Origin: an uncultured Candidatus Saccharibacteria bacterium
GTDB taxonomy: Bacteria; Patescibacteriota; Saccharimonadia; CAILAD01; CAZGYV01
Direction of reading: 5' to 3'
Length of the DNA stretch: 64,000 nt
Assembly: GCA_964530725.1 (NCBI GenBank)
Contig: CAZGYV010000001.1
Span: forward strand, 15,829-79,828
Each line of letters starts with the position of its first letter. Positions within the stretch are counted from its first letter, which is position 1. The notes beneath the pieces were generated by a model. The model was not told the origin of the DNA. It searched no databases and saw nothing but the letters and a program-made list of their open reading frames with translations. The position numbers and the translations under genes are program-made. Shown here in pieces: positions 3,229 through 11,005 of the stretch.

Positions 3229-3249
3229 AGCGATCCTTACTGAATGGAG

Positions 3250-3684
3250 CTAGTTCGCGGTCGTCGGCCAGGGGTCTCCCTCGGTAAGGTGTCTGATGAG
3301 CTTGTCATGCCAGTCGTCACGAACCACGTTGATGAACGTGGTGCCGCCTCCGACGCTCTCGTTGAGGGACTCGTTGCTGGTGCAGATCACCATAATGCAA
3401 TCAAGCCAACTGGCTCCGTAGCGAGCACCGCAGACGTGCTTGGTCAGGACGGAAAATGTATTGCCGTCAAGCTGAACCGACAGGAATGCACCGGTGGCCA
3501 AGTCGGCAGTCGTGGGGTAAATGCCGGCGTGGGGCTGGGAGCGCTCCAAGACGGAGATATCCTCGTCGCTAACATCGAGAGCCTGTTGGTAGGCCTGCGC
3601 GTGGCTGACGAATCGCTGCCACATGCTGGCCTCACGGCTGGTGGTTTCGTCGATGATCGAGCGTACCGCATTTCGAAAGCCCAT
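3250..3684 (-). CDS. hypothetical protein (144 aa; maximal ORF extends to 3741)
   Basis: I prefer the internal start MGFRNAVRSIIDE because of the SD (aaaGGAGccctATG); the ATG at 3741 has none. High-GC codon usage. I recognise no family. Confidence 0.4.
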   Translation of the reverse strand: MGFRNAVRSIIDETTSREASMWQRFVSHAQAYQQALDVSDEDISVLERSQPHAGIYPTTADLATGAFLSVQLDGNTFSVLTKHVCGARYGASWLDCIMVICTSNESLNESVGGGTTFINVVRDDWHDKLIRHLTEGDPWPTTAN

Positions 3685-3867
3685 AGGGCTCCTTTCACTT
3701 GAAGGATCGTCATTCACCGCGGATGCGGCAAATGTGTTCATTGCGCGAACCTGTAGATATTAGCACAACTATTGCTTTTTATCAAGGTTTGTGGTGTGAT
3801 TTCGTTTATTCTTCTTAGGACAATTGGCCGGGAGAAAATGCTCGAGGGCGCTGCTTGTTCCGGCATG

Positions 3868-3898
3868 AAAAAACCCGAGACTTAGACTCGGGTTTTTT
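3868..3898. terminator. bidirectional rho-independent terminator
   Basis: AAAAAACCCGAG-acttaga-CTCGGGTTTTTT: a 6-bp GC core flanked by an A-run and a T-run, so it can terminate in both directions. Confidence 0.7.
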
Positions 3899-3899
3899 C

Positions 3900-3922
3900 A
3901 TGGTGAACGTGGTTGAATCGAA
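3900..3922 (-). other. degenerate tRNA 3'-end-like remnant (candidate left attachment site)
   Basis: ATGGTGAACGTGGTTGAATCGAA compared with the tRNA-Glu 3' end ATGGTGATCCCACGGGGAATCGAA (10930-10953). The shared parts are ATGGTGA (ACCA end) and GAATCGAA (T-loop). The stems do not match and there is no cloverleaf. Confidence 0.3.
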
Positions 3923-4081
3923 TTGGAACGATATCCTTATGGAGTTCAGGCGACTCCATCACCTTATCAGGGGATTATCTCTGGCATAATCCATTCGCTA
4001 CGGTGATAGAACTAGTTTATGCTTGACACATAATGCTAATGCTTTTGTTATAGGCTTCTGAACCCTATAATACAGTGTAAT

Positions 4082-7000
4082 ATGTCTACATTACATAAAA
4101 GAGTATGGGGTAAAATCAAAAGCTACTTTGTAAGGGATGAAGCCGAGAAGCAAACACACCCCCTAAAGTCTCTCAGGCCAGCAAAGAATATTGATGGTCA
4201 CTCCGCTTATGTTGACGACATCGCTGAAGCGGTTGCAAATGATGACATTCTGAATATAGCCCTTACTGGCAGCTACGGTTCTGGTAAAAGTAGTATCCTC
4301 AGAGTCTTCAAGGATTCAACAAAGAAGAATAAAGTAGTCCAAATATCGTTCTCAAGCCTAGGGGCGAATATACAGGGTTATATCAATAAGTCTGAAGATG
4401 ATGAACACGAGAAGCTAAACAATCTCACAAACCTAATCCAAAAAGAGATAGTCAAACAGATACTCTTCAAGGAAAAGTACAAGAATATACCGTATTCAAA
4501 GTACAAGAGAGTCTCCAGCCCACGCTTGCCCCTAGTTTTTCTTAACGCATCATTAATATCTATAGTTCTGTTGGCCGTATCATTCGCAAACGGGTGGCTG
4601 GCTCAATTGTTTAAAGTTGCAGCCATTTCGGATTTCTGGTGGCAGGTAGCACTCTGTGCAGACCTATTCATTATCAGTACCTCGCTTATTGCTATCTTCG
4701 TGCTTACGCTATCTGGCAAAATACGGATAGATAAAATTGGTGCATCTTCAATATCATTATCACTCTCGGGAAGTGCAAGTTATTTTGACGAATACTTAGA
4801 TGAGATTATCTACTTCTTTGAAGCTGGACGATACAACGTGGTTATCTTTGAAGATATTGATAGGTTTGAGAGCCTTTATATTTTCGAGACCCTTCGACAG
4901 CTCAACACCATTCTGAATAACTCAGAGCAGATAAAACAACCCGTGACTTTCATCTACGCAATTAAAGACAGTATTTTCGCCAAAGAAGTTGTTGATGCTA
5001 AGAACGACCACAAAGAGCGAAGTGCAAACAGAACCAAGTTCTTTGACCTCATCATTCCTGTAGTTCCTTTCATTACTAATGTGAACTCACAAGACCACAT
5101 ACTTCAGGTTTTTGATAGCGAGTACCGAGACATCATCAGAGAGCCAGCCTCAGTAGTGGCAAAGCATATTACTGATATGCGTCTTGTGGTTAACATCTAT
5201 AACGAGTTTCTAATATTCAAGGATAAAGTTGTACTCCCCGACTCAGGCTTATCTCTGGATAAGTTATTTGCAGTTGTTGCTTACAAAAACTGGAATCTGG
5301 ATGAGTTTGAAAAAGTTAAAGATGGTGATAGTTCAATCGATAAGGTTATTGCTGCACACAGCAAATATGTTGACGATAGAATACGTACCATTAACTCTGA
5401 GATACGAAGCAAAGAAAGTGCCCTAAAGACTATCAATGCCATTGCTGAACGGTCACAGAGCTTAGGTAAGGTTCTTACCGACTATATAGCCGATGTATTG
5501 CGACAGGTGCAAGGTTCTGCTCAGTCCTATAGCCTTAACAGCACTTCTTATGACTTAGAAGATTTCACAACCGAAGATTTTTGGAGCGATATCATCAAAG
5601 GGGGTGAGACCAGTACTCTTATTGTCACCTATCGAGCATCAACTGGCTACACACAAAACCTTACACTGACGGCAGCCGACATCAGTAGTATTTGTAGCGA
5701 CAGCCTTGATAAAACCCAGTGGGATACAAAAGCAGCAGAAGCTATTGAAGACGAAATAGGAGTACTACGAGCCGAAGCTAATAAACTCCCATACCAAAGT
5801 ATCAAGGAACTCATTCAGGAATCACCAGAGTTTCTCGCTAAATTAAAGGAGCTCGATGGCGGTAAGGTTGTTGCTGACGAGGTAGGATGGCAACTCATTA
5901 AGGCTGGCTATATCGATACCGAATTCGTACACTACACCTCGCTATACTACAGCACCAGCATGAGCCTCAAAGCTCGTAGCTTCTTGCTAAATAATGTCCG
6001 ACTGAACAAACAGTCTTTGCATCACAAGTTTGAAAACGATGATGACATACAAGCACTTCTAGAAAAAATGGGCAGTACCTATCTTAATGATAAGAGCATG
6101 TACAACATCTCAATAGTTGATTACTTGCTCAGGAAGGATGACTCAAGAGTAGATAAGATAATAGCTAACTTGGCAGGCGGTGACGCTGACGACCTTCAAT
6201 TTATCAATGCATATGTGAAGGAGGGTTCTGAAGTAACCAAGTTTATCCAACAGCTTGCTGCACGATGGGATGGAATCTTTACGTATATTACAGGTGATAA
6301 CGAAATGGATGATAAAAAGAAGGGTCGTTTCATTAGCCTTGCATTAACTGCTGGTTCTGAGAGTATCAAGTATAAAACCAATCCATCCGTTAAAGGTTTT
6401 ATTGAGGCCAATAAAACAAACGTCCAGATACTTACAAACGATAACCAAGATAGCTCAGCCGTTGATGATGCTTGCCGATTGCTCATGCAGTTTGGAATTG
6501 AATTCGATACTCTTGATAATCTGAACGAGCAAGCAAAGGAAGCCGTAAAAGATTATGGTCTCTATACGGTCAATGAGCAGAACATGACATCTATCCTTGG
6601 AAGTCCAAGAGTGCCTTTGGATACAATCAAACGCACAAATGAATATGTCTACTCTCACTTGCTAGGGCATCTTGGTGAGTACGCAGACCTATTCCAGAAT
6701 CGAGCAGGCTCAGAATATGCACTTGCAGGCGAAGACGGATTTGAAGCAGTAATTGATGAGGTGTCAAAGATTTCGATGGATGACTTAGGATTAATTCTGG
6801 CTAATGCTGACCTGTCGAACTGTATCGTTCAAGATATTAATAAACTTGGTTCAGACACATGGCCTCTACTGGTTGAGAATGTCATTCTGTCCAACACTCT
6901 AAGTAACGTTCTGACATACTTTGAGCTGTCACATGCCGATGACAAGACAGTAATCAATGACCTGCTGGCTACATACCTTACTGAGGCTGAAACGGTTGTA

Positions 7001-7753
7001 CTTGATAAAGACTTTGCGGAGTATACTGCAGAAAATGTAAAGACCTTTGTTTTGGCCGTAGTAAATAGTTCAAAAATCGATGTGGAGACCACGGTTAATA
7101 TTGTCCATGATTGCTACACCGAAGACTACATTGACATATCAGATATTAAACCCCAAAACGGTAGCCTCTACGGTGCGTTGCTATCAAAGGACTGCATCGA
7201 AGATACGCAGGCGAACTTCGAGGCAATTAGAAACCTTTCTTGGGAAACGAAAAGCTCATACATAGCAAACTCCAAGAAGTTCTTAGAGTACATTGCAGCC
7301 CTCGCTCTCACTACGGACGAGCTAAACTCTATTGCTGAAGACGGCTCAATTCCTGATGCCGTTAACGAGTATATAGTCGATAACATCGTTGCTTATTCTG
7401 CTGAGTTATCTATCATGTCAGCTGCACACTTTGCCGAGTTTGCATTACGTAAGTCGAAGGTACTCAGTGCTGATTCACTTAAGGTTATTCTTGACGGAGC
7501 GGATAAGGAAACTAGCATTAAGCTCATAGGTCTAGCTTTAAATAATCTCGACTTTTCAAATATGCTCACACTCATGCCAGTTGTTGGTGGAGAGTATAAG
7601 AAGCTATCCGAGAAAAACAAACGACCATTATTTGAGAATACCGACTACAACTTAAACCTCATTGCCCGACTTAAAGAACTGGGCTTGGTGAGTAGTTATG
7701 AATTAAAAGATAATGAAACAAAAATAAAAGTAGTTATGAAGTCACGATGGTAG
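4082..7753 (+). CDS. KAP-family-like P-loop NTPase with transmembrane insert (1223 aa; YobI-like)
   Basis: Walker A LTGSYGSGKSS and Walker B-like VVIFEDIDRF are separated by two long hydrophobic helices (LVFLNASLISIVLLAVSFANGWLAQLF and WWQVALCADLFIISTSLIAIFVLTL). About 900 aa of unassigned, largely helical-looking sequence follows. Confidence 0.7.
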   Translation: MSTLHKRVWGKIKSYFVRDEAEKQTHPLKSLRPAKNIDGHSAYVDDIAEAVANDDILNIALTGSYGSGKSSILRVFKDSTKKNKVVQISFSSLGANIQGYINKSEDDEHEKLNNLTNLIQKEIVKQILFKEKYKNIPYSKYKRVSSPRLPLVFLNASLISIVLLAVSFANGWLAQLFKVAAISDFWWQVALCADLFIISTSLIAIFVLTLSGKIRIDKIGASSISLSLSGSASYFDEYLDEIIYFFEAGRYNVVIFEDIDRFESLYIFETLRQLNTILNNSEQIKQPVTFIYAIKDSIFAKEVVDAKNDHKERSANRTKFFDLIIPVVPFITNVNSQDHILQVFDSEYRDIIREPASVVAKHITDMRLVVNIYNEFLIFKDKVVLPDSGLSLDKLFAVVAYKNWNLDEFEKVKDGDSSIDKVIAAHSKYVDDRIRTINSEIRSKESALKTINAIAERSQSLGKVLTDYIADVLRQVQGSAQSYSLNSTSYDLEDFTTEDFWSDIIKGGETSTLIVTYRASTGYTQNLTLTAADISSICSDSLDKTQWDTKAAEAIEDEIGVLRAEANKLPYQSIKELIQESPEFLAKLKELDGGKVVADEVGWQLIKAGYIDTEFVHYTSLYYSTSMSLKARSFLLNNVRLNKQSLHHKFENDDDIQALLEKMGSTYLNDKSMYNISIVDYLLRKDDSRVDKIIANLAGGDADDLQFINAYVKEGSEVTKFIQQLAARWDGIFTYITGDNEMDDKKKGRFISLALTAGSESIKYKTNPSVKGFIEANKTNVQILTNDNQDSSAVDDACRLLMQFGIEFDTLDNLNEQAKEAVKDYGLYTVNEQNMTSILGSPRVPLDTIKRTNEYVYSHLLGHLGEYADLFQNRAGSEYALAGEDGFEAVIDEVSKISMDDLGLILANADLSNCIVQDINKLGSDTWPLLVENVILSNTLSNVLTYFELSHADDKTVINDLLATYLTEAETVVLDKDFAEYTAENVKTFVLAVVNSSKIDVETTVNIVHDCYTEDYIDISDIKPQNGSLYGALLSKDCIEDTQANFEAIRNLSWETKSSYIANSKKFLEYIAALALTTDELNSIAEDGSIPDAVNEYIVDNIVAYSAELSIMSAAHFAEFALRKSKVLSADSLKVILDGADKETSIKLIGLALNNLDFSNMLTLMPVVGGEYKKLSEKNKRPLFENTDYNLNLIARLKELGLVSSYELKDNETKIKVVMKSRW

Positions 7754-7919
7754 ACGTGGGGTGCGGTAGGGCTCGCCAAGCGTAGCGGCACAAGTCCTGT
7801 TTAGCGGGATACTACTTTATAGCATAAGCATGCCATAAGCAAAAAACGAAAACTCCATACCTCTGCATCTGTAAATTGGCGGATTTCTAGTAGTTTTTGG
7901 CTATGACTAACTATACGTA

Positions 7920-8414
7920 TTAGTAGCTTTTAGGAATAGCCTTACAAACTTCATCAAGAAGCTCATCAGGACTCATGTTGAGGTTTTGGTTTAAGTCTTT
8001 AAACTCCATAGTTATCATCACATAGACCATAGTCTGGAAGTTATTTGGGTGTTCTAGCTTCTCTGCAACTTGGGTTGTATATGCAGTTAGTCGTAATAGT
8101 TCGTCTGGCTTTTTGAATCCAGTTCTTGCAGAGACTGTCATAAGTCGCAACTCTTCCTTACTGGCATTAGGATTCTGGCGTTTATGCATGTCATACATCT
8201 TCTTTTGCGTCTTGGCTATTGAAACAGGACTACCTGCTTTTTTGAATAGTCCACCAATCCACTTGAAGATAGCAACAACCCAAAAGAACAGACCAAACCA
8301 TACAAGGATACCCGCAAACATTGAGGGTAGTAAATGGAATATACTAGGCAGCATTAAAGCTAACCCGATAAGGAACAGTTGATAAGGCTTAATACTTTTT
8401 CTTTGCTTCGACAT
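7920..8414 (-). CDS. hypothetical two-TM membrane protein (164 aa)
   Basis: Start MSKQRKSIKPYQ is preceded by an SD (ttAAGGAGaaaaacATG). Hydrophobic hairpin LFLIGLALMLPSIFHLL / FAGILVWFGLFFWVVAIF, followed by a soluble C-terminal domain. The 196-aa track ORF has an unsupported N-terminal extension. Confidence 0.55.
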   Translation of the reverse strand: MSKQRKSIKPYQLFLIGLALMLPSIFHLLPSMFAGILVWFGLFFWVVAIFKWIGGLFKKAGSPVSIAKTQKKMYDMHKRQNPNASKEELRLMTVSARTGFKKPDELLRLTAYTTQVAEKLEHPNNFQTMVYVMITMEFKDLNQNLNMSPDELLDEVCKAIPKSY

Positions 8415-8575
8415 GTTTTTCTCCTTAAAAATAAAAACGACACCACGCTTGGTGTCTAAACCAGTAACAGAGTTTTTAAGCCCGATTACTTCGCATGGTG
8501 CCGTTTTCAAGGCTTAAAACCACGCAAAATTACTTGCGGTACTCTATAACTGGTTTAGACTATTTCATTATATAA
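8415..8575 (-). promoter_or_regulatory. structured 5' leader: long closing stem, two internal hairpins, then a terminator-like hairpin abutting the SD
   Basis: Arms 8454-8473 and 8541-8560 pair 18/20. Inner stems are 8474-8482/8511-8519 (9 bp) and 8523-8527/8534-8538 (5 bp). Hairpin GACACCA-cgct-TGGTGTC (8439-8456) is followed on the minus strand by GTTTTTATTTTT and then AAGGAG-ATG. Confidence 0.45.
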
Positions 8576-8856
8576 CAAAAACACCCCCATGTTGCTCAAA
8601 TCACCCCTGAGCCCAAACGATATTTTGCGTTTAAAATCAAAAGTTGATGTTATGCCCATCTCGTAGATAAAAGTGCGTGTTTTGACGGTTTATTTACAGT
8701 ATGTTGGTCGATTATTTTGCTTCCAAAATTAAAAGATGAGCATAAGTCCACCTCACAAATATGAGCGAAAAAAATGAAGCAAGTTCAGCGGTATTTCCGA
8801 CCACTATGGAGTTTTTGGTTATCCACAGACACTTGTCAAAATAAACATAAAAGGTA

Positions 8857-8885
8857 TTGACTTTTTGGGCAAAGTTTGATATAAT
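8857..8885 (+). promoter_or_regulatory. near-consensus sigma70-type promoter
   Basis: TTGACT (8857-8862), a 17-nt spacer, then TATAAT (8880-8885). Confidence 0.6.
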
Positions 8886-8891
8886 ACCAAC

Positions 8892-9128
8892 AGTTAATGA
8901 CGTGGTACACATGTTAAATCTCTTAGCTAAATCATACACAGAACCGACACGGCGTGGTGTTTAGCTAGTTATTTGATAGTCCTATAGTCACTACTCTTGT
9001 TGGAAGCAATAAAGAGAGAGCATCAGAGTTTCGCCTTCGTGAAAATATGCCCATTCTCCTACGTTGTCCTACTAAATAATTAGTAAGATAACAGGCTGAT
9101 TTAGTACGCCCTCGGACGGGTGTTTTTT
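8892..9128 (+). ncRNA. candidate ~235-nt non-coding transcript (or leader of the recombinase operon)
   Basis: Runs from the consensus promoter at 8857-8885 to a weak terminator: CGCCC-tcggac-GGGTG plus TTTTTT (9107-9128). Only 6-17-codon ORFs lie inside. It contains several hairpins, e.g. CTACTAAataaTTAGTAAG. Confidence 0.35.
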
Positions 9129-9154
9129 ATATCTGCCAAAGAATAAGGGTTAAC

Positions 9155-9376
9155 ATGCCACGACAAAGAACATGGAGCGGTCAGATGCTCACAATATCAG
9201 ATAAACCTATCATTACCACAGGAGAAGCTCGCAAGATACTAGGCAAGGGTTACGAAGAGCTTTCAGATGAACACCTAATGGGAGTAATTGTTTCACTTTC
9301 TAAGATAGCAGACTATTTCCTGACTAGGATTAGTGTTCCAGAAAACTATAAGGTATGTGGTAAAATGGGGATATGA
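9155..9376 (+). CDS. small protein (73 aa), possible HTH/recombination directionality factor
   Basis: ATGA-coupled to the recombinase start. The segment ITTGEARKILGKGYEELSD looks like a helix-turn-helix. I recognise no family. Confidence 0.4.
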   Translation: MPRQRTWSGQMLTISDKPIITTGEARKILGKGYEELSDEHLMGVIVSLSKIADYFLTRISVPENYKVCGKMGI

Positions 9377-10971
9377 ATACGATGGATAAAAAAGAGCCAA
9401 TCAAAGTTTATGGTTATAAGCGTGTGTCTACTGAGGAGCAAGTTGATGGGATGTCTTTACATACTCAAGAGCTTGCAATTCAAGCCTACGCAGAGCAGCA
9501 CAATCTTGAGGTGGTGCATATCTTTCATGACGATGGAATATCCGCCAAAACAGCCAAGCGCCCGCAACTTCAAGAGATGCTCGCAAAACTCACAGCCAAA
9601 GATAACGAGGTGCGTGGTGTAGTTGTTTACAATCTCAGTCGTATCTCTCGTGATTTAGAGTCATACAGTCGTGATATAGGCTATCATCTTTCGGCAAAAG
9701 GCGTTCGTCTGTACTCTACAGTTGAAAACATTGACGATACACCAGAGGGTCGTTTGATGCGTAATATTGCACTCTCTATCCACCAGTACGATAACGATAC
9801 AAAAAGTCGAACAGTTAAAGACAATATGAAACAAGTTGCTCTTGAGGGTTGGTGGCAAGGCAATATCCCCTACGGATATAGCCGTGTTAAAGTACCGATT
9901 GGCATTAAGGACAAAGACGGTAAAACTAAGGAGCGTCTCACTCTCGAACCTGATAGCAATAACGACTTGAGCGACAAGATGCGTATGATGCTAGAGCGGT
10001 TCAGTGAGGGTGATTTGAAACAGTCCGAGCTTACTGATTATGCTGAGAGTATCGGCCTATACAGCCCAAAGGGTGAACGTTTTGCACCTCAGTCAATGAA
10101 TAACATTCTAAGAAATATTACCTATGCGGGCTTTGTGTGTAATAAGATGACAGACTTTGAACCTGTAAAGGCTAAACACGTAGGTCTTATCTCGCTTGAG
10201 ACATATTTACGTAATCAGGCTGTTCTTGATGGTCGTAAGCCTGATGAGGCGATGCCTCGCTTTACTGCTAGCTACCCTCTCAAGCACTCTCTGTTATGTA
10301 TTAACTGTCATAAACCCTTAACAGGTAGTGCACCTACTGGAGGTTCTGGTAAGAGCTCACCTCGCTATCACTGCACAAGATGTACGGGTACTGGCTCAAA
10401 AGGTCTTGATAGAACGAATGAGCTATTTGAAGCATTCTTAAACGATGTTACGCCTACAGATAAGATGATTAAGCTCTTTGATGTGATTGTACGCCGTATC
10501 GCCAAAGACAAGCTCTCAAACGTGAATAAGGCTATCAGCGATGTTAGAGACGATATGACCAAGATAGACACTGATATGCAGAAAGCACTTCAGTCTATGC
10601 TCGATGGCGATATCAGTAAGCAAGAGAAAGAAGACTACCAGTCGTCATTACGTATTAAGCGACTCAACCTAGAGGACGAACTTAATAAGCTACGAGACAT
10701 ACAGAGCCTCAATGAGTCTACTATTACCTATGTTTGTAACTTTATGGACGCTCCTGCTCGTATGTGGCAAGATGCAGACGCAGAGACAAAAGTCATCTTC
10801 CAACAGATGGTTACAGAGAACGGTATTGTATTCGACCTCAAGAACGAAAAGTTTGGAACGGACGGTTTGAGTATGTTTTACAGATTGAAAGACAACAAAA
10901 AAGACCCATCAAAGGCTGATGAGTCCCTTATGGTGATCCCACGGGGAATCGAACCCCGGTTACCAGGATGA
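9373..10971 (+). CDS. large serine recombinase (532 aa)
   Basis: Resolvase-type N-terminal domain (VYGYKRVSTEEQ with catalytic Ser; GISAKT..RPQLQEML; VVVYNLSRISRD). Recombinase domain (WQGNIPYGY). Zn-ribbon CINCH...YHCTRC. Coiled-coil C-terminal region. The last 41 nt overlap tRNA-Glu in antisense. Confidence 0.9.
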   Translation: MNTMDKKEPIKVYGYKRVSTEEQVDGMSLHTQELAIQAYAEQHNLEVVHIFHDDGISAKTAKRPQLQEMLAKLTAKDNEVRGVVVYNLSRISRDLESYSRDIGYHLSAKGVRLYSTVENIDDTPEGRLMRNIALSIHQYDNDTKSRTVKDNMKQVALEGWWQGNIPYGYSRVKVPIGIKDKDGKTKERLTLEPDSNNDLSDKMRMMLERFSEGDLKQSELTDYAESIGLYSPKGERFAPQSMNNILRNITYAGFVCNKMTDFEPVKAKHVGLISLETYLRNQAVLDGRKPDEAMPRFTASYPLKHSLLCINCHKPLTGSAPTGGSGKSSPRYHCTRCTGTGSKGLDRTNELFEAFLNDVTPTDKMIKLFDVIVRRIAKDKLSNVNKAISDVRDDMTKIDTDMQKALQSMLDGDISKQEKEDYQSSLRIKRLNLEDELNKLRDIQSLNESTITYVCNFMDAPARMWQDADAETKVIFQQMVTENGIVFDLKNEKFGTDGLSMFYRLKDNKKDPSKADESLMVIPRGIEPRLPG

Positions 10972-11005
10972 GAACCTGGCGTCCTAACCGCTAGACGATG
11001 GGACC
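10931..11005 (-). tRNA. tRNA-Glu (anticodon CUC), 75 nt with encoded CCA
   Basis: Manual cloverleaf: acceptor GGTCCCA/TGGGATC, D-arm GTCT-AGCGGTTA-GGAC, anticodon arm CCAGG-TTCTCAT-CCTGG, T-arm CGGGG-TTCGATT-CCCCG, discriminator A, then CCA. Confidence 0.9.

What the first reader, a model, noticed from the sequence alone, without database searches (positions are those of the whole stretch)
4082..7753. Giant KAP/YobI-like NTPase: transmembrane hairpin inserted between Walker A and Walker B, ~900 aa unassigned C-terminal region, no SD
Walker A LTGSYGSGKSS (nt ~4268-4294) and Walker B-like VVIFEDIDRF (nt ~4838-4867) are ~190 aa apart. The intervening sequence holds two long hydrophobic helices: LVFLNASLISIVLLAVSFANGWLAQLF and WWQVALCADLFIISTSLIAIFVLTL. 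A TM hairpin inserted into the P-loop domain is the defining trait of KAP NTPases (Aravind, Iyer, Leipe and Koonin, 2004). From memory the size and layout resemble proteins labelled YobI-family P-loop NTPase; this is unverified. The remaining ~900 aa have no motif I recognise, so any effector or sensor function is unknown. The ATG at 4082 has no Shine-Dalgarno (acagtgtaatATG), and a TATAAT at 4066-4071 lies only 10 nt upstream. The mRNA may therefore be leaderless, unlike nearly every other gene in the window. An alternative promoter is TTGACA 4023-4028, 17 nt, TGTTAT.
Basis: partly seen in the sequence, partly recalled or inferred. Interest (0 to 1): 0.65.

Follow-up and report, generated by a model that had tools for sequence, protein, structure and literature searches.

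The report
Tmn-type membrane ATPase phage-defence gene
The giant gene is a new member of the known Tmn/YobI family of membrane-anchored ATPases that defend bacteria against phages; it sits on a small mobile island in a tiny-genome (Saccharimonadia-like) bacterium, so it is largely ordinary.

Summary

The gene belongs to a described family. It matches Pfam YobI-ATPase at E=6.9e-101 over the full profile and the PADLOC Tmn model at E=1.2e-63. All nine NTPase-domain residues whose mutation abolishes defence in E. coli Tmn are conserved.

The "unassigned" C-terminal 800 aa is conserved end to end in more than 500 cluster representatives. AF2 (pLDDT 91) folds it as a coiled coil with a small alpha/beta domain, followed by a ~40-helix ARM/HEAT-like solenoid. 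This is the sensor-arm layout published for Tmn in 2026.

KAP membership proper fails: 17.5 bits against a cut-off of 20.

The claim that this start is unlike nearly every other gene in the window is wrong. 39 of 47 long ORFs lack an SD, and 12 of 45 have a -10 box 4-14 nt upstream of the start.

New context: the gene is cargo on a ~7-kb low-GC island with a large serine recombinase, inserted at the 3' end of tRNA-Glu(CUC) in a Patescibacteria (Saccharimonadia-like) genome.

Verdict: new member of a known kind, of modest interest.

The parts
4082..7753 (+). [quoted passage not shown]
   Evidence: ORF confirmed. Pfam PF20693 E=6.9e-101. PADLOC Tmn PDLC02220 E=1.2e-63. 2683 homologues at E<1e-5 among the 8000 candidates scored; all 120 listed are 1175-1350 aa.
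4208..5338 (+). YobI-type P-loop NTPase domain (residues 43-419), split by the TM hairpin
4268..4294 (+). Walker A GSYGSGKSS (G68, K69)
   Evidence: Motif located. G68 and K69 are invariant in 77 homologues. They correspond to E. coli Tmn G66/K67, whose mutation abolishes defence.
4532..4612 (+). Transmembrane helix 1 (residues 151-177)
   Evidence: Kyte-Doolittle peak 2.41. AF2 helix 149-179, pLDDT above 90. Hydrophobic peak kept in 72 of 77 homologues.
4637..4711 (+). Transmembrane helix 2 (residues 186-210)
   Evidence: Kyte-Doolittle peak 2.39. AF2 helix 185-213. 8-residue connecting loop; K/R-rich flanks indicate both ends are cytoplasmic.
4838..4867 (+). Walker B VVIFEDIDRF (D258, R261)
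   Evidence: Motif located. Forms strand 251-257 in the AF2 model. D258 and R261 correspond to E. coli D276/R279, which are essential for defence.
5333..5794 (+). Proximal arm: coiled-coil hairpin (residues ~418-475 and 544-571) with an inserted small alpha/beta domain (~479-538)
   Evidence: AF2 model of residues 415-1223, pLDDT 91.1. [quoted passage not shown]
5801..7609 (+). Distal arm: alpha-solenoid of about 40 helices (residues ~574-1176), the presumed trigger sensor
   Evidence: AF2 model. All Foldseek PDB hits are weak ARM/HEAT solenoids such as beta-catenin, importins, PP2A-A and CAND1. Conserved end to end in 518 cluster representatives at E<=1e-10.
7628..7738 (+). Small C-terminal strand-helix-hairpin domain (residues ~1183-1219)
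   Evidence: AF2 model. Family consensus is ...LGxVSS...IxVNMK.
4023..4071 (+). Promoter block: TTGACA(4023-4028)-17-TGTTAT(4046-4051), plus TATAAT(4066-4071) 10 nt before the ATG
   Evidence: Read. The hexamers are conserved in L001 and L008, and TTGACA also in L007 (the L007 stretch aligned ends before the other two), while the 12 nt between TGTTATA and CTATAATA vary. Neither pair passes the strict consensus scan.
3900..3906 (.). Left copy of the 7-bp core ATGGTGA (predicted attL crossover)
   Evidence: The same heptamer lies at 10930-10936 and at the recombinase/tRNA junction of L007.
3907..3990 (+). Predicted P' arm. With the core it encodes MVNVVESNWNDILMEFRRLHHLIRGLSLA*, a homologue of the C-terminal tail of the L001 serine recombinase
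   Evidence: 85% nucleotide identity to L001 21314-21402. Alignments and translations.
7751..7922 (.). Conserved ~170-nt intergenic element after the Tmn stop codon
   Evidence: 78-81% identical copies follow Tmn and an unrelated ORF in L001. Its motifs also lie upstream of the Tmn promoter in L001 and L007. No significant RNA fold, z=+0.75.
7920..8414 (-). 164-aa membrane protein of unknown function, with an SD (AAGGAGAAAAAC-ATG); island cargo
   Evidence: No Pfam or PADLOC hit. Not conserved next to Tmn in L001, L007 or L008.
9155..9376 (+). 73-aa ORF overlapping the recombinase start by 4 nt; possibly a directionality factor
   Evidence: No family hit. A strong promoter, TTGACT-17-TATAAT with TG, lies at 8857-8885.
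9373..10971 (+). Large serine recombinase (532 aa) whose last 12 codons are antisense to tRNA-Glu
   Evidence: Pfam Resolvase 2.7e-27 plus Recombinase. Junction sequence. Same arrangement in L007.
10930..10936 (.). Right copy of the core ATGGTGA (predicted attR crossover); overlaps the CCA end of the tRNA
10934..11005 (-). tRNA-Glu(CUC), the integration target
   Evidence: Rfam tRNA 61.7 bits, E=7.5e-12. ARAGORN calls it at 10931-11005. The same tRNA lies next to the DUF3048 gene in L002, without an island.
3864..3902 (.). Bidirectional terminator hairpin; in the predicted empty site it would directly follow the tRNA-Glu 3' end
   Evidence: Inverted repeat I3, 19-nt arms, 95% complementary. 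L005 shows this layout, a hairpin directly followed by the tRNA-Glu 3' end.

Best explanation
The gene encodes a Tmn-type (YobI-family) single-protein anti-phage defence.

Shown here:
- The P-loop NTPase domain is split by a two-helix membrane hairpin, so the catalytic domain and the C-terminus are both cytoplasmic.
- Every NTPase-domain residue known to be essential in E. coli Tmn is present.
- The C-terminal 800 aa fold as a coiled-coil 'proximal arm' carrying a small alpha/beta domain, followed by a long ARM/HEAT-like alpha-solenoid 'distal arm'.
- The gene is cargo on a horizontally acquired ~7-kb island driven by a serine recombinase.

Inferred from the experimentally studied E. coli homologues (Wu et al. 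2026 preprint):
- Protomers assemble into a large membrane ring; the E. coli protein forms a decamer.
- The solenoid arm binds a phage protein made early in infection.
- Binding raises ATP turnover.
- The complex exports a cation (Mg2+ in E. coli). The cytoplasm collapses (plasmolysis) and ATP falls, which arrests phage development and limits spread.

The trigger for this particular protein is unknown. It very probably differs from T2 RIIB, because the arms are unalignable in sequence with those of E. coli Tmn.
For: - Family: PF20693 at E=6.9e-101 over the full profile. PADLOC Tmn at E=1.2e-63 over residues 19-696.
- Catalytic residues: G68, K69, Y244, D258, R261, N279, K319, F320 and R367 correspond to E. 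coli Tmn G66, K67, Y262, D276, R279, N297, K325, F326 and R374. All are essential for defence in E. coli, and all are invariant in my 12-sequence alignment.
- TM hairpin.
- Arms: AF2 pLDDT 91.1, coiled coil plus alpha/beta domain plus about 40 solenoid helices. The paper describes 38 helices in 15 ARM/HEAT-like repeats. Foldseek returns only ARM/HEAT solenoids.
- Fixed architecture: 518 cluster representatives match the C-terminal 809 aa at E<=1e-10, nearly all end to end in proteins of about 1200-1290 aa.
- Single-gene system: neighbours differ in all four contexts examined.
- Defence-island context: a type IIG/MmeI-like restriction-modification gene sits beside the 95% identical copy in L001. 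An Mrr-like nuclease and a Gabija-like helicase/OLD pair sit beside the 86% identical copy in L008. Gabija is a published synergy partner of Tmn.
- Mobility: GC is 38-44% on the island against 50-57% in the flanks, with a serine recombinase and a tRNA junction.
Against: - No experiment has been done on this protein or on any close relative.
- Overall identity to the tested E. coli plasmid Tmn is only 20%. tblastn aligns residues 19-470 only.
- The PADLOC model covers only 55% of its own length.
- A profile comparison of the C-terminal arms with the E. coli arms gives one weak local match, E=0.004.
- The proximal-arm residues essential in E. coli (F506, Y541, R544) are not conserved in my alignment, which is unreliable in that region.
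- The published mechanism rests on an 11.6 Å map and a preprint. It was worked out in a diderm, and the host here is an ultra-small Patescibacteria-type cell.
- The published census (Pseudomonadota 68%, Bacillota 24%, Bacteroidota 7% of occurrences) does not mention Patescibacteria.
Confidence: 0.75

Rival explanations
1. It is a YobI-family defence protein with the same chassis but a different output from E. coli Tmn. Examples would be export of another ion, or pure ATP depletion, with an unrelated trigger. In that case the plasmolysis/Mg2+ model would not transfer.
For: The arms are not alignable with those of E. coli Tmn. Identity to E. coli Tmn is 20%. [quoted passage not shown]
Against: The catalytic core, TM hairpin and arm architecture are all conserved. 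The paper reports arm architecture conserved across all ten clades, with TM-scores 0.81-0.997.
Confidence: 0.15
2. The gene mainly serves the mobile island, for example by excluding competing elements or by post-segregational stabilisation, rather than protecting the cell against phages.
For: A serine recombinase lies within a few kb in four of four contexts. In E. coli the gene is mostly carried on conjugative F-type plasmids.
Against: No antitoxin-like partner is conserved. Tested family members protect against phages. Carriage of defence genes on mobile elements is the usual pattern, not evidence for another role.
Confidence: 0.06
3. It is a KAP-family NTPase in the strict sense (PifA/Kidins220 family).
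For: There is a weak PF07693 hit at E=0.0026 over residues 43-358. TM segments inside the NTPase domain are the trait stressed by Aravind et al. 2004 (title cited).
Against: The score is 17.5 bits, below the 20-bit gathering cut-off, against 338.8 bits for YobI. The literature separates the two families.
Confidence: 0.03
4. It is a decaying or inactive remnant carried by a degraded island.
For: The island looks mosaic. The left arm matches the tail of a recombinase lineage (L001/L007) that is only 21-23% identical to the recombinase actually present.
Against: The 3.7-kb ORF is intact. All catalytic residues are kept. Copies at 80-95% identity in other contigs are all full length. The promoter block is conserved.
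Confidence: 0.01

Closest known systems
Tmn anti-phage system of E. coli (for example WP_064055658.1 on IncF plasmid pYLPI7a, annotated 'anti-phage transmembrane ATPase'; Tmn-25 of Wu et al. 2026, PMC13001434; first reported by Gao et al. 2020)
   Same: - Similar size: 1223 aa against 1273 aa.
- YobI-type P-loop domain with two TM helices between Walker A and Walker B.
- All nine essential NTPase-domain residues are kept.
- Coiled-coil proximal arm with an alpha/beta domain, then an ARM/HEAT-like solenoid distal arm.
- Single-gene system carried on mobile DNA.
   Different: - 20% overall identity.
- The C-terminal arms are not alignable by sequence profile.
- The host is a Patescibacteria-type bacterium rather than an enterobacterium.
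- The carrier is a chromosomal serine-recombinase island, not an F plasmid.
- The trigger is unknown.
YobI-family P-loop NTPases (Pfam PF20693; namesake B. subtilis YobI, recalled from memory)
   Same: The match covers the full length of the profile and lies far above threshold. NCBI names the homologues accordingly.
   Different: Nothing defining differs. This protein is a regular member.
KAP NTPases (PF07693: Kidins220/ARMS, PifA; EF_KAP of PMC13552941)
   Same: Membrane-associated P-loop NTPases implicated in defence. They carry large C-terminal regions without known domains, and they are linked to serine recombinases in RADS.
   Different: Below the Pfam threshold. It is a distinct family. 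The RADS marker is a small serine recombinase; here the recombinase is large, at 532 aa.
Avs/STAND antiviral ATPases
   Different: There is no separate effector domain. The effector is the membrane assembly itself. The TM hairpin sits inside the NTPase domain.

Membership tests
YobI-family P-loop NTPase (Pfam PF20693) | Profile match above the curated cut-off over the whole domain | tested here: met
   338.8 bits against a cut-off of 27; residues 43-419, profile positions 1-362 of 363.
YobI-family P-loop NTPase (Pfam PF20693) | Two transmembrane helices inserted within the P-loop domain, between Walker A and Walker B | tested here: met
   Hydropathy peaks at 151-177 and 186-210, and none elsewhere. 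Kept in 72 of 77 homologues. AF2 helices with pLDDT above 90 lie between strands 84-89 and 251-257.
YobI-family P-loop NTPase (Pfam PF20693) | Intact Walker A (GxxxxGKS) and Walker B (hhhhED) | tested here: met
   GSYGSGKS at residues 63-70 and VVIFED at 253-258; G68, K69, E257 and D258 are invariant in 77 sequences.
Tmn defence system (Gao 2020; PADLOC PDLC02220) | Match to the PADLOC Tmn model | tested here: inconclusive
   E=1.2e-63, but only profile positions 17-720 of 1273 and residues 19-696 are covered. I could not check PADLOC's own coverage thresholds.
Tmn defence system (Gao 2020; PADLOC PDLC02220) | NTPase-domain residues shown by mutagenesis to be essential (G66/K67, Y262, D276/R279, N297, K325/F326, R374 in Tmn-25) | tested here: met
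   All nine are identical: G68, K69, Y244, D258, R261, N279, K319, F320 and R367.
Tmn defence system (Gao 2020; PADLOC PDLC02220) | Proximal-arm residues essential in Tmn-25 (F506, Y541/R544) | tested here: inconclusive
   The aligned residues are S502, L527 and T530. These columns vary across the family and the alignment is unreliable there.
Tmn defence system (Gao 2020; PADLOC PDLC02220) | Cytosolic architecture: coiled-coil proximal arm with an alpha/beta domain, plus a distal ARM/HEAT-like alpha-solenoid | tested here: met
   AF2 pLDDT 91.1 shows this layout. Foldseek hits are solenoids only. It is a prediction, not a solved structure.
Tmn defence system (Gao 2020; PADLOC PDLC02220) | Self-contained single gene with no conserved operon partner | tested here: met
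   Neighbours differ in the window, L001, L007 and L008.
Tmn defence system (Gao 2020; PADLOC PDLC02220) | Protects against phage; ATP-dependent Mg2+ export and plasmolysis; decameric assembly | not testable with these tools
   Requires experiments.
KAP NTPase (Pfam PF07693) | Profile match above the curated cut-off | tested here: not met
   17.5 bits against a cut-off of 20.
Genomic island integrated by a large serine recombinase | Recombinase at one end, deviating composition, target site occupied here and empty in a relative | tested here: met
   - Resolvase and Recombinase domains.
- GC 38-44% against 50-57% in the flanks.
- tRNA-Glu junction.
- L002 has tRNA-Glu next to DUF3048 without an island.
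- L007 is a second occupied site.
- The exact predicted empty-site 30-mer was not found.

The most novel reading that the evidence does not exclude
Two linked readings remain open.

(1) A fully equipped Tmn is active in a Saccharimonadia-type ultra-small epibiont. Few defence systems have been identified in that group and only one phage has been described for it (PMC12366544). There the system would sense a Patescibacteria-phage protein through arms unrelated in sequence to those of E. coli.

(2) The island that carries it belongs to a family of large-serine-recombinase elements targeting the 3' end of tRNA-Glu(CUC). The crossover core (ATGGTGA) lies inside the recombinase gene. Integration would therefore replace the last 27 residues of the enzyme with 12 residues encoded antisense to the tRNA. 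This could act as a built-in switch between the integration-competent and resident forms.
Probability: 0.3. Interest if true: 0.5.

Novelty: new member of a known kind. Interest (0 to 1): 0.3.

Why it matters
For Tmn biology this copy adds little beyond a data point. It shows the family with conserved catalytic residues and arm architecture in Patescibacteria, a phylum not mentioned in the published census. It is carried there on a compact island that moves between genomes.

The result shows that a 1-Mb-class epibiont genome can afford a 3.7-kb single-gene defence. It also offers a divergent arm set for asking how the solenoid determines trigger specificity.

The side observation may be the more original lead. 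Serine recombinases of two lineages only 21-23% identical (window; L007) have 3' ends that run into the same tRNA-Glu, and the tail differs between the L007 recombinase and its 78%-identical relative in L001.

Tried and rejected
- NCBIfam scan: no family.
- Megablast of the locus against E. coli genomes: nothing.
- Exact-sequence look-ups of the Tmn protein and of two flanking proteins: not on record, so the source genome is not in the collection.
- Predicted empty attB 30-mer in genome contigs: 0 hits.
- Degenerate attP-like pattern in viral contigs: 0 hits.
- afdb50 fold library: not available.
- PDB sequence search: no relative.
- Foldseek against PDB with the C-terminal model: only generic solenoids at E>=1e-3.
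- hhalign of the family C-terminus against the E. coli Tmn C-terminus: a single weak local match.
- Idea that window 3900-3990 is a second tRNA: rejected. ARAGORN and Rfam find none. Its substitutions relative to L001 mostly give similar amino acids and keep the reading frame open to the stop, which fits a coding origin.
- Idea that the 170-nt post-Tmn element is a structured RNA: not supported. The fold z-score is +0.75, and the only long-range helix has no covariation.
- Idea that the 164-aa membrane ORF is a Tmn partner: rejected, because it is not conserved beside Tmn in L001, L007 or L008.
- My initial recollection that Tmn came from Millman 2022 was wrong. The paper cites Gao et al. 2020.

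Full report
**1.

The ORF 4082..7753 (+) starts with ATG, encodes 1223 aa and is the longest ORF in the window. An in-frame TAA at 4037-4039 excludes an upstream start.

The 14-residue N-terminal extension called for the 95% identical P0001 comes from an ATG that does not exist in the window. The shared Met is the window's start.

- Walker A (GSYGSGKSS) is at nt 4268-4294.
- Walker B (VVIFEDIDRF) is at nt 4838-4867.

The two quoted hydrophobic stretches are residues 151-177 and 186-210. They are the only places in the protein where a 19-residue Kyte-Doolittle mean reaches 1.6, with peaks at 2.41 and 2.39.

A single peak of that height is not rare in shuffles of this composition (mean maximum 1.97, 99th percentile 2.76). 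Three other results carry the weight:
- Both peaks recur between the Walker motifs in 72 of 77 homologues, although that segment is hardly conserved in sequence.
- The flanks are K/R-rich (6 before TM1, 3 after TM2) and the loop is 8 residues. This indicates a hairpin with both ends in the cytoplasm.
- AF2 builds helices 149-179 and 185-213 at pLDDT above 90, between beta-strands 84-89 and 251-257 of the P-loop fold.

**2. What it is**

- Pfam gives YobI-ATPase (PF20693) at E=6.9e-101, covering profile positions 1-362 of 363.
- KAP_NTPase scores 17.5 bits, below its 20-bit cut-off.
- PADLOC gives Tmn at E=1.2e-63 over residues 19-696.
- NCBIfam has no model.
- A database search returns 2683 homologues at E<1e-5. 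Essentially all are 1200-1290 aa, all carry PF20693, and NCBI names them 'YobI family P-loop NTPase'.
- tblastn against plasmids finds 634 records, 463 of them E. coli. Some are annotated 'anti-phage transmembrane ATPase'.

I retrieved one of these, WP_064055658.1, 1273 aa, on an IncF plasmid. Its numbering coincides with Tmn-25 of Wu et al. (bioRxiv 2026, PMC13001434).

In a 12-sequence alignment, all nine NTPase-domain residues whose mutation abolishes defence in Tmn-25 are identical in the window protein and invariant across the alignment. They are G66, K67, Y262, D276, R279, N297, K325, F326 and R374 in Tmn-25. In the window protein they are G68, K69, Y244, D258, R261, N279, K319, F320 and R367.

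**3. The 'unassigned' C-terminus**

Pfam finds nothing in residues 415-1223, and PDB holds no sequence relative. The region is nevertheless not an orphan:
- 820 cluster representatives (clusters at 50% identity) match it at E<=1e-3.
- 518 match at E<=1e-10 and 309 at E<=1e-30.
- Almost all align end to end at the same position in proteins of about 1200-1290 aa.

AF2 with a 77-sequence alignment gives pLDDT 91.1. The model shows:
- a long coiled-coil hairpin (residues ~418-475 and 544-571) carrying a small alpha/beta domain (~479-538);
- about 40 stacked helices (~574-1176);
- a small strand-helix-hairpin domain (~1183-1219).

Foldseek against PDB returns only weak hits (E>=1e-3). All of them are ARM/HEAT solenoids: beta-catenin, importins, PP2A-A, CAND1 and SF3B1.

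This is the published Tmn layout. The paper describes a proximal arm that is a conserved coiled coil with a variable alpha/beta domain, and a distal arm that is an alpha-solenoid of ARM-like and HEAT-like repeats. It reports 15 repeats (38 helices), conserved in all ten clades.

At the sequence level the arms are not comparable with those of E. coli Tmn. hhalign gives one local match at E=0.004, around the AGYID..F.LYTS motif. The proximal-arm residues essential in Tmn-25 are not conserved in my alignment. Both results fit the paper's statement that variability is concentrated in the C-terminal region and sets specificity.

**4. How it most likely works**

Shown here: the membrane anchoring and topology, the catalytic competence as judged from conserved residues, and the arm architecture.

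Inferred by homology:
- The protein oligomerises into a membrane ring; the E. coli protein is a decamer.
- The distal arm binds a phage protein made early in infection; for Tmn-25 this is T2 RIIB.
- Binding increases ATP turnover.
- Mg2+ is exported selectively, which causes plasmolysis and an ATP drop. [quoted passage not shown]

The trigger for this protein is unknown. The ion specificity may also differ, as the authors themselves allow.

**5. Start signals**

They are conserved upstream of 80-92% identical copies of the gene in L001, L007 and L008, while the 12 nt between TGTTATA and CTATAATA vary. The strict consensus scan does not call either pair.

The inference that the gene is unusual is wrong:
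- 39 of 47 long ORFs in the window have no SD at their first start.
- 12 of 45 have a -10-like hexamer ending 4-14 nt before the start codon, against 5% of random positions.

Leaderless or very short-leader starts are therefore the local norm. Which of the two promoters is used cannot be decided from sequence.

**6. Host and island**

The neighbouring DUF3048 gene is 69% identical to one in a Candidatus Saccharimonadia MAG (L002). Synteny with that MAG continues over window ~11.5-17.7 kb. Further relatives are Patescibacteria MAGs.

GC drops from 50-57% to 36-45% between about 4000 and 11000. That stretch contains:
- Tmn;
- a 164-aa membrane ORF with no family assignment;
- a 73-aa ORF;
- a 532-aa large serine recombinase.

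The recombinase ORF runs 41 nt into a genuine tRNA-Glu(CUC) on the opposite strand (Rfam 61.7 bits).

The heptamer ATGGTGA occurs at the tRNA's CCA end (10930-10936). It occurs again at 3900-3906, directly after a terminator hairpin.

Evidence from related loci:
- L002 has the same tRNA-Glu next to DUF3048 with housekeeping genes on the other side and no island. It carries a 19-nt partial duplicate of the tRNA 3' end 160 nt away.
- L005 shows a terminator hairpin abutting the tRNA 3' end, as predicted for the empty site, and also carries such a duplicate.
- L007 (Tmn 90% identical) is a second occupied site. Its serine recombinase reads into tRNA-Glu(CUC) across ...ATGGTGA|TCCC.

The L007 recombinase is 78% identical to that of L001 over 496 residues, but the two differ after the 'MV' encoded by the core:
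- L007 ends IPRRIELRLPG, which is antisense tRNA sequence.
- L001 ends NLVESYWNDILMEFNRLYHLMKGLSLA.
- Window 3907-3990, just left of Tmn, encodes NVVESNWNDILMEFRRLHHLIRGLSLA*.

The simplest reading is that the crossover core lies inside the recombinase gene, so integration swaps the enzyme's C-terminal tail.

Caveats:
- The window's own recombinase is only 21-23% identical to the L001/L007 lineage, so the island is probably a mosaic.
- Neither the predicted empty site nor an attP-like pattern was found by exact search.

Defence genes accompany the close Tmn copies elsewhere: an MmeI-like restriction-modification gene in L001, and an Mrr-like nuclease plus a Gabija-like pair in L008.

**7. Comparison and novelty**

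The protein is a regular member of the YobI family and, on every feature I could test, of the Tmn defence family. It is not a KAP protein by the Pfam criterion.

What is new is limited to three points:
- a divergent set of arms, 20% identical to the tested E. coli protein;
- a Patescibacteria host. The published census lists only Pseudomonadota, Bacillota, Bacteroidota and one archaeon, and a 2025 study notes that very few defence systems are known in Patescibacteria;
- the carrier island.

I rate it 'new member of a known kind', with interest 0.3.

Noticed in passing
window 3900-3990 and 9373-11005; L007 16460-18164; L001 19784-21403: Large serine recombinases of two lineages only 21-23% identical (window; L007) end across the same heptamer ATGGTGA at the 3' end of tRNA-Glu(CUC); the L001 recombinase (78% identical to L007's) ends across the same heptamer but with no tRNA there. 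The L007 recombinase carries a 12-aa tail encoded antisense to the tRNA. Its 78%-identical relative in L001 carries a 27-aa tail after MV (29 aa with it) instead. A homologue of that 29-aa tail lies at the left end of the window island. This suggests that attP sits inside the recombinase gene, so integration swaps the C-terminus.
   Followed up: partly
window 7751-7922; L001 13715-13874, 22720-22879 and ~9843-9960; L007 ~9838-9958: A conserved ~170-nt non-coding element (GTGGGGTrCGG.AGGG ... AAAACTCCATACCT) follows different cargo ORFs and precedes the Tmn promoter block in related islands, as if it marks cassette boundaries. It has no significant RNA fold (z=+0.75) and no Rfam match.
   Followed up: partly
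whole window, e.g. starts at 461, 17876(-), 27919, 39253(-), 42215(-), 53860(-): Most genes lack a Shine-Dalgarno sequence (39 of 47). 27% have a TATAAT-like box 4-14 nt upstream of the start codon, against 5% background. This points to widespread leaderless or near-leaderless mRNAs in this Patescibacteria-type genome.
   Followed up: partly
L002 9667-9685 and 9828-9902; L005 19501-19520 and 19629-19703: In two related MAGs without an island, a 19-20-nt duplicate of the tRNA-Glu 3' end lies 125-160 nt beyond the tRNA. It looks like a scar of earlier integration and excision at the same hotspot.
   Followed up: no
L008 13969-23663: The 86% identical Tmn copy sits next to an Mrr-like nuclease, a serine recombinase, RadC, a KAP-like NTPase, a T4SS coupling-protein-like ATPase and a Gabija-like pair (UvrD helicase plus OLD/AAA_15). 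Gabija is the published synergy partner of Tmn.
   Followed up: no
window 7920-8414 (-) and 8417-8588; L007 15618-15785: A 164-aa ORF has a hydrophobic, probably membrane-spanning N-terminal third (19-residue hydropathy windows of at least 1.6, peak 2.43 at residue 32) and, unusually for this window, a strong SD (AAGGAG). It has no family. Its upstream region is 88% identical to a stretch in L007 that precedes a different gene, so again the intergenic scaffold is conserved while the cargo is swapped.
   Followed up: no
window 8857-9376: The best sigma-70-type promoter of the region (TTGACT-17-TATAAT with TG) lies about 270 nt upstream of a 73-aa ORF. That ORF overlaps the recombinase start by 4 nt and may be a directionality factor. 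A terminator-like hairpin at 9106-9123 sits inside this leader.
   Followed up: no
window 3244-3741: Two ORFs of 152 and 163 aa overlap almost fully on opposite strands in the high-GC left flank. Neither has a family hit. GC by codon position does not clearly decide which one is coding.
   Followed up: no
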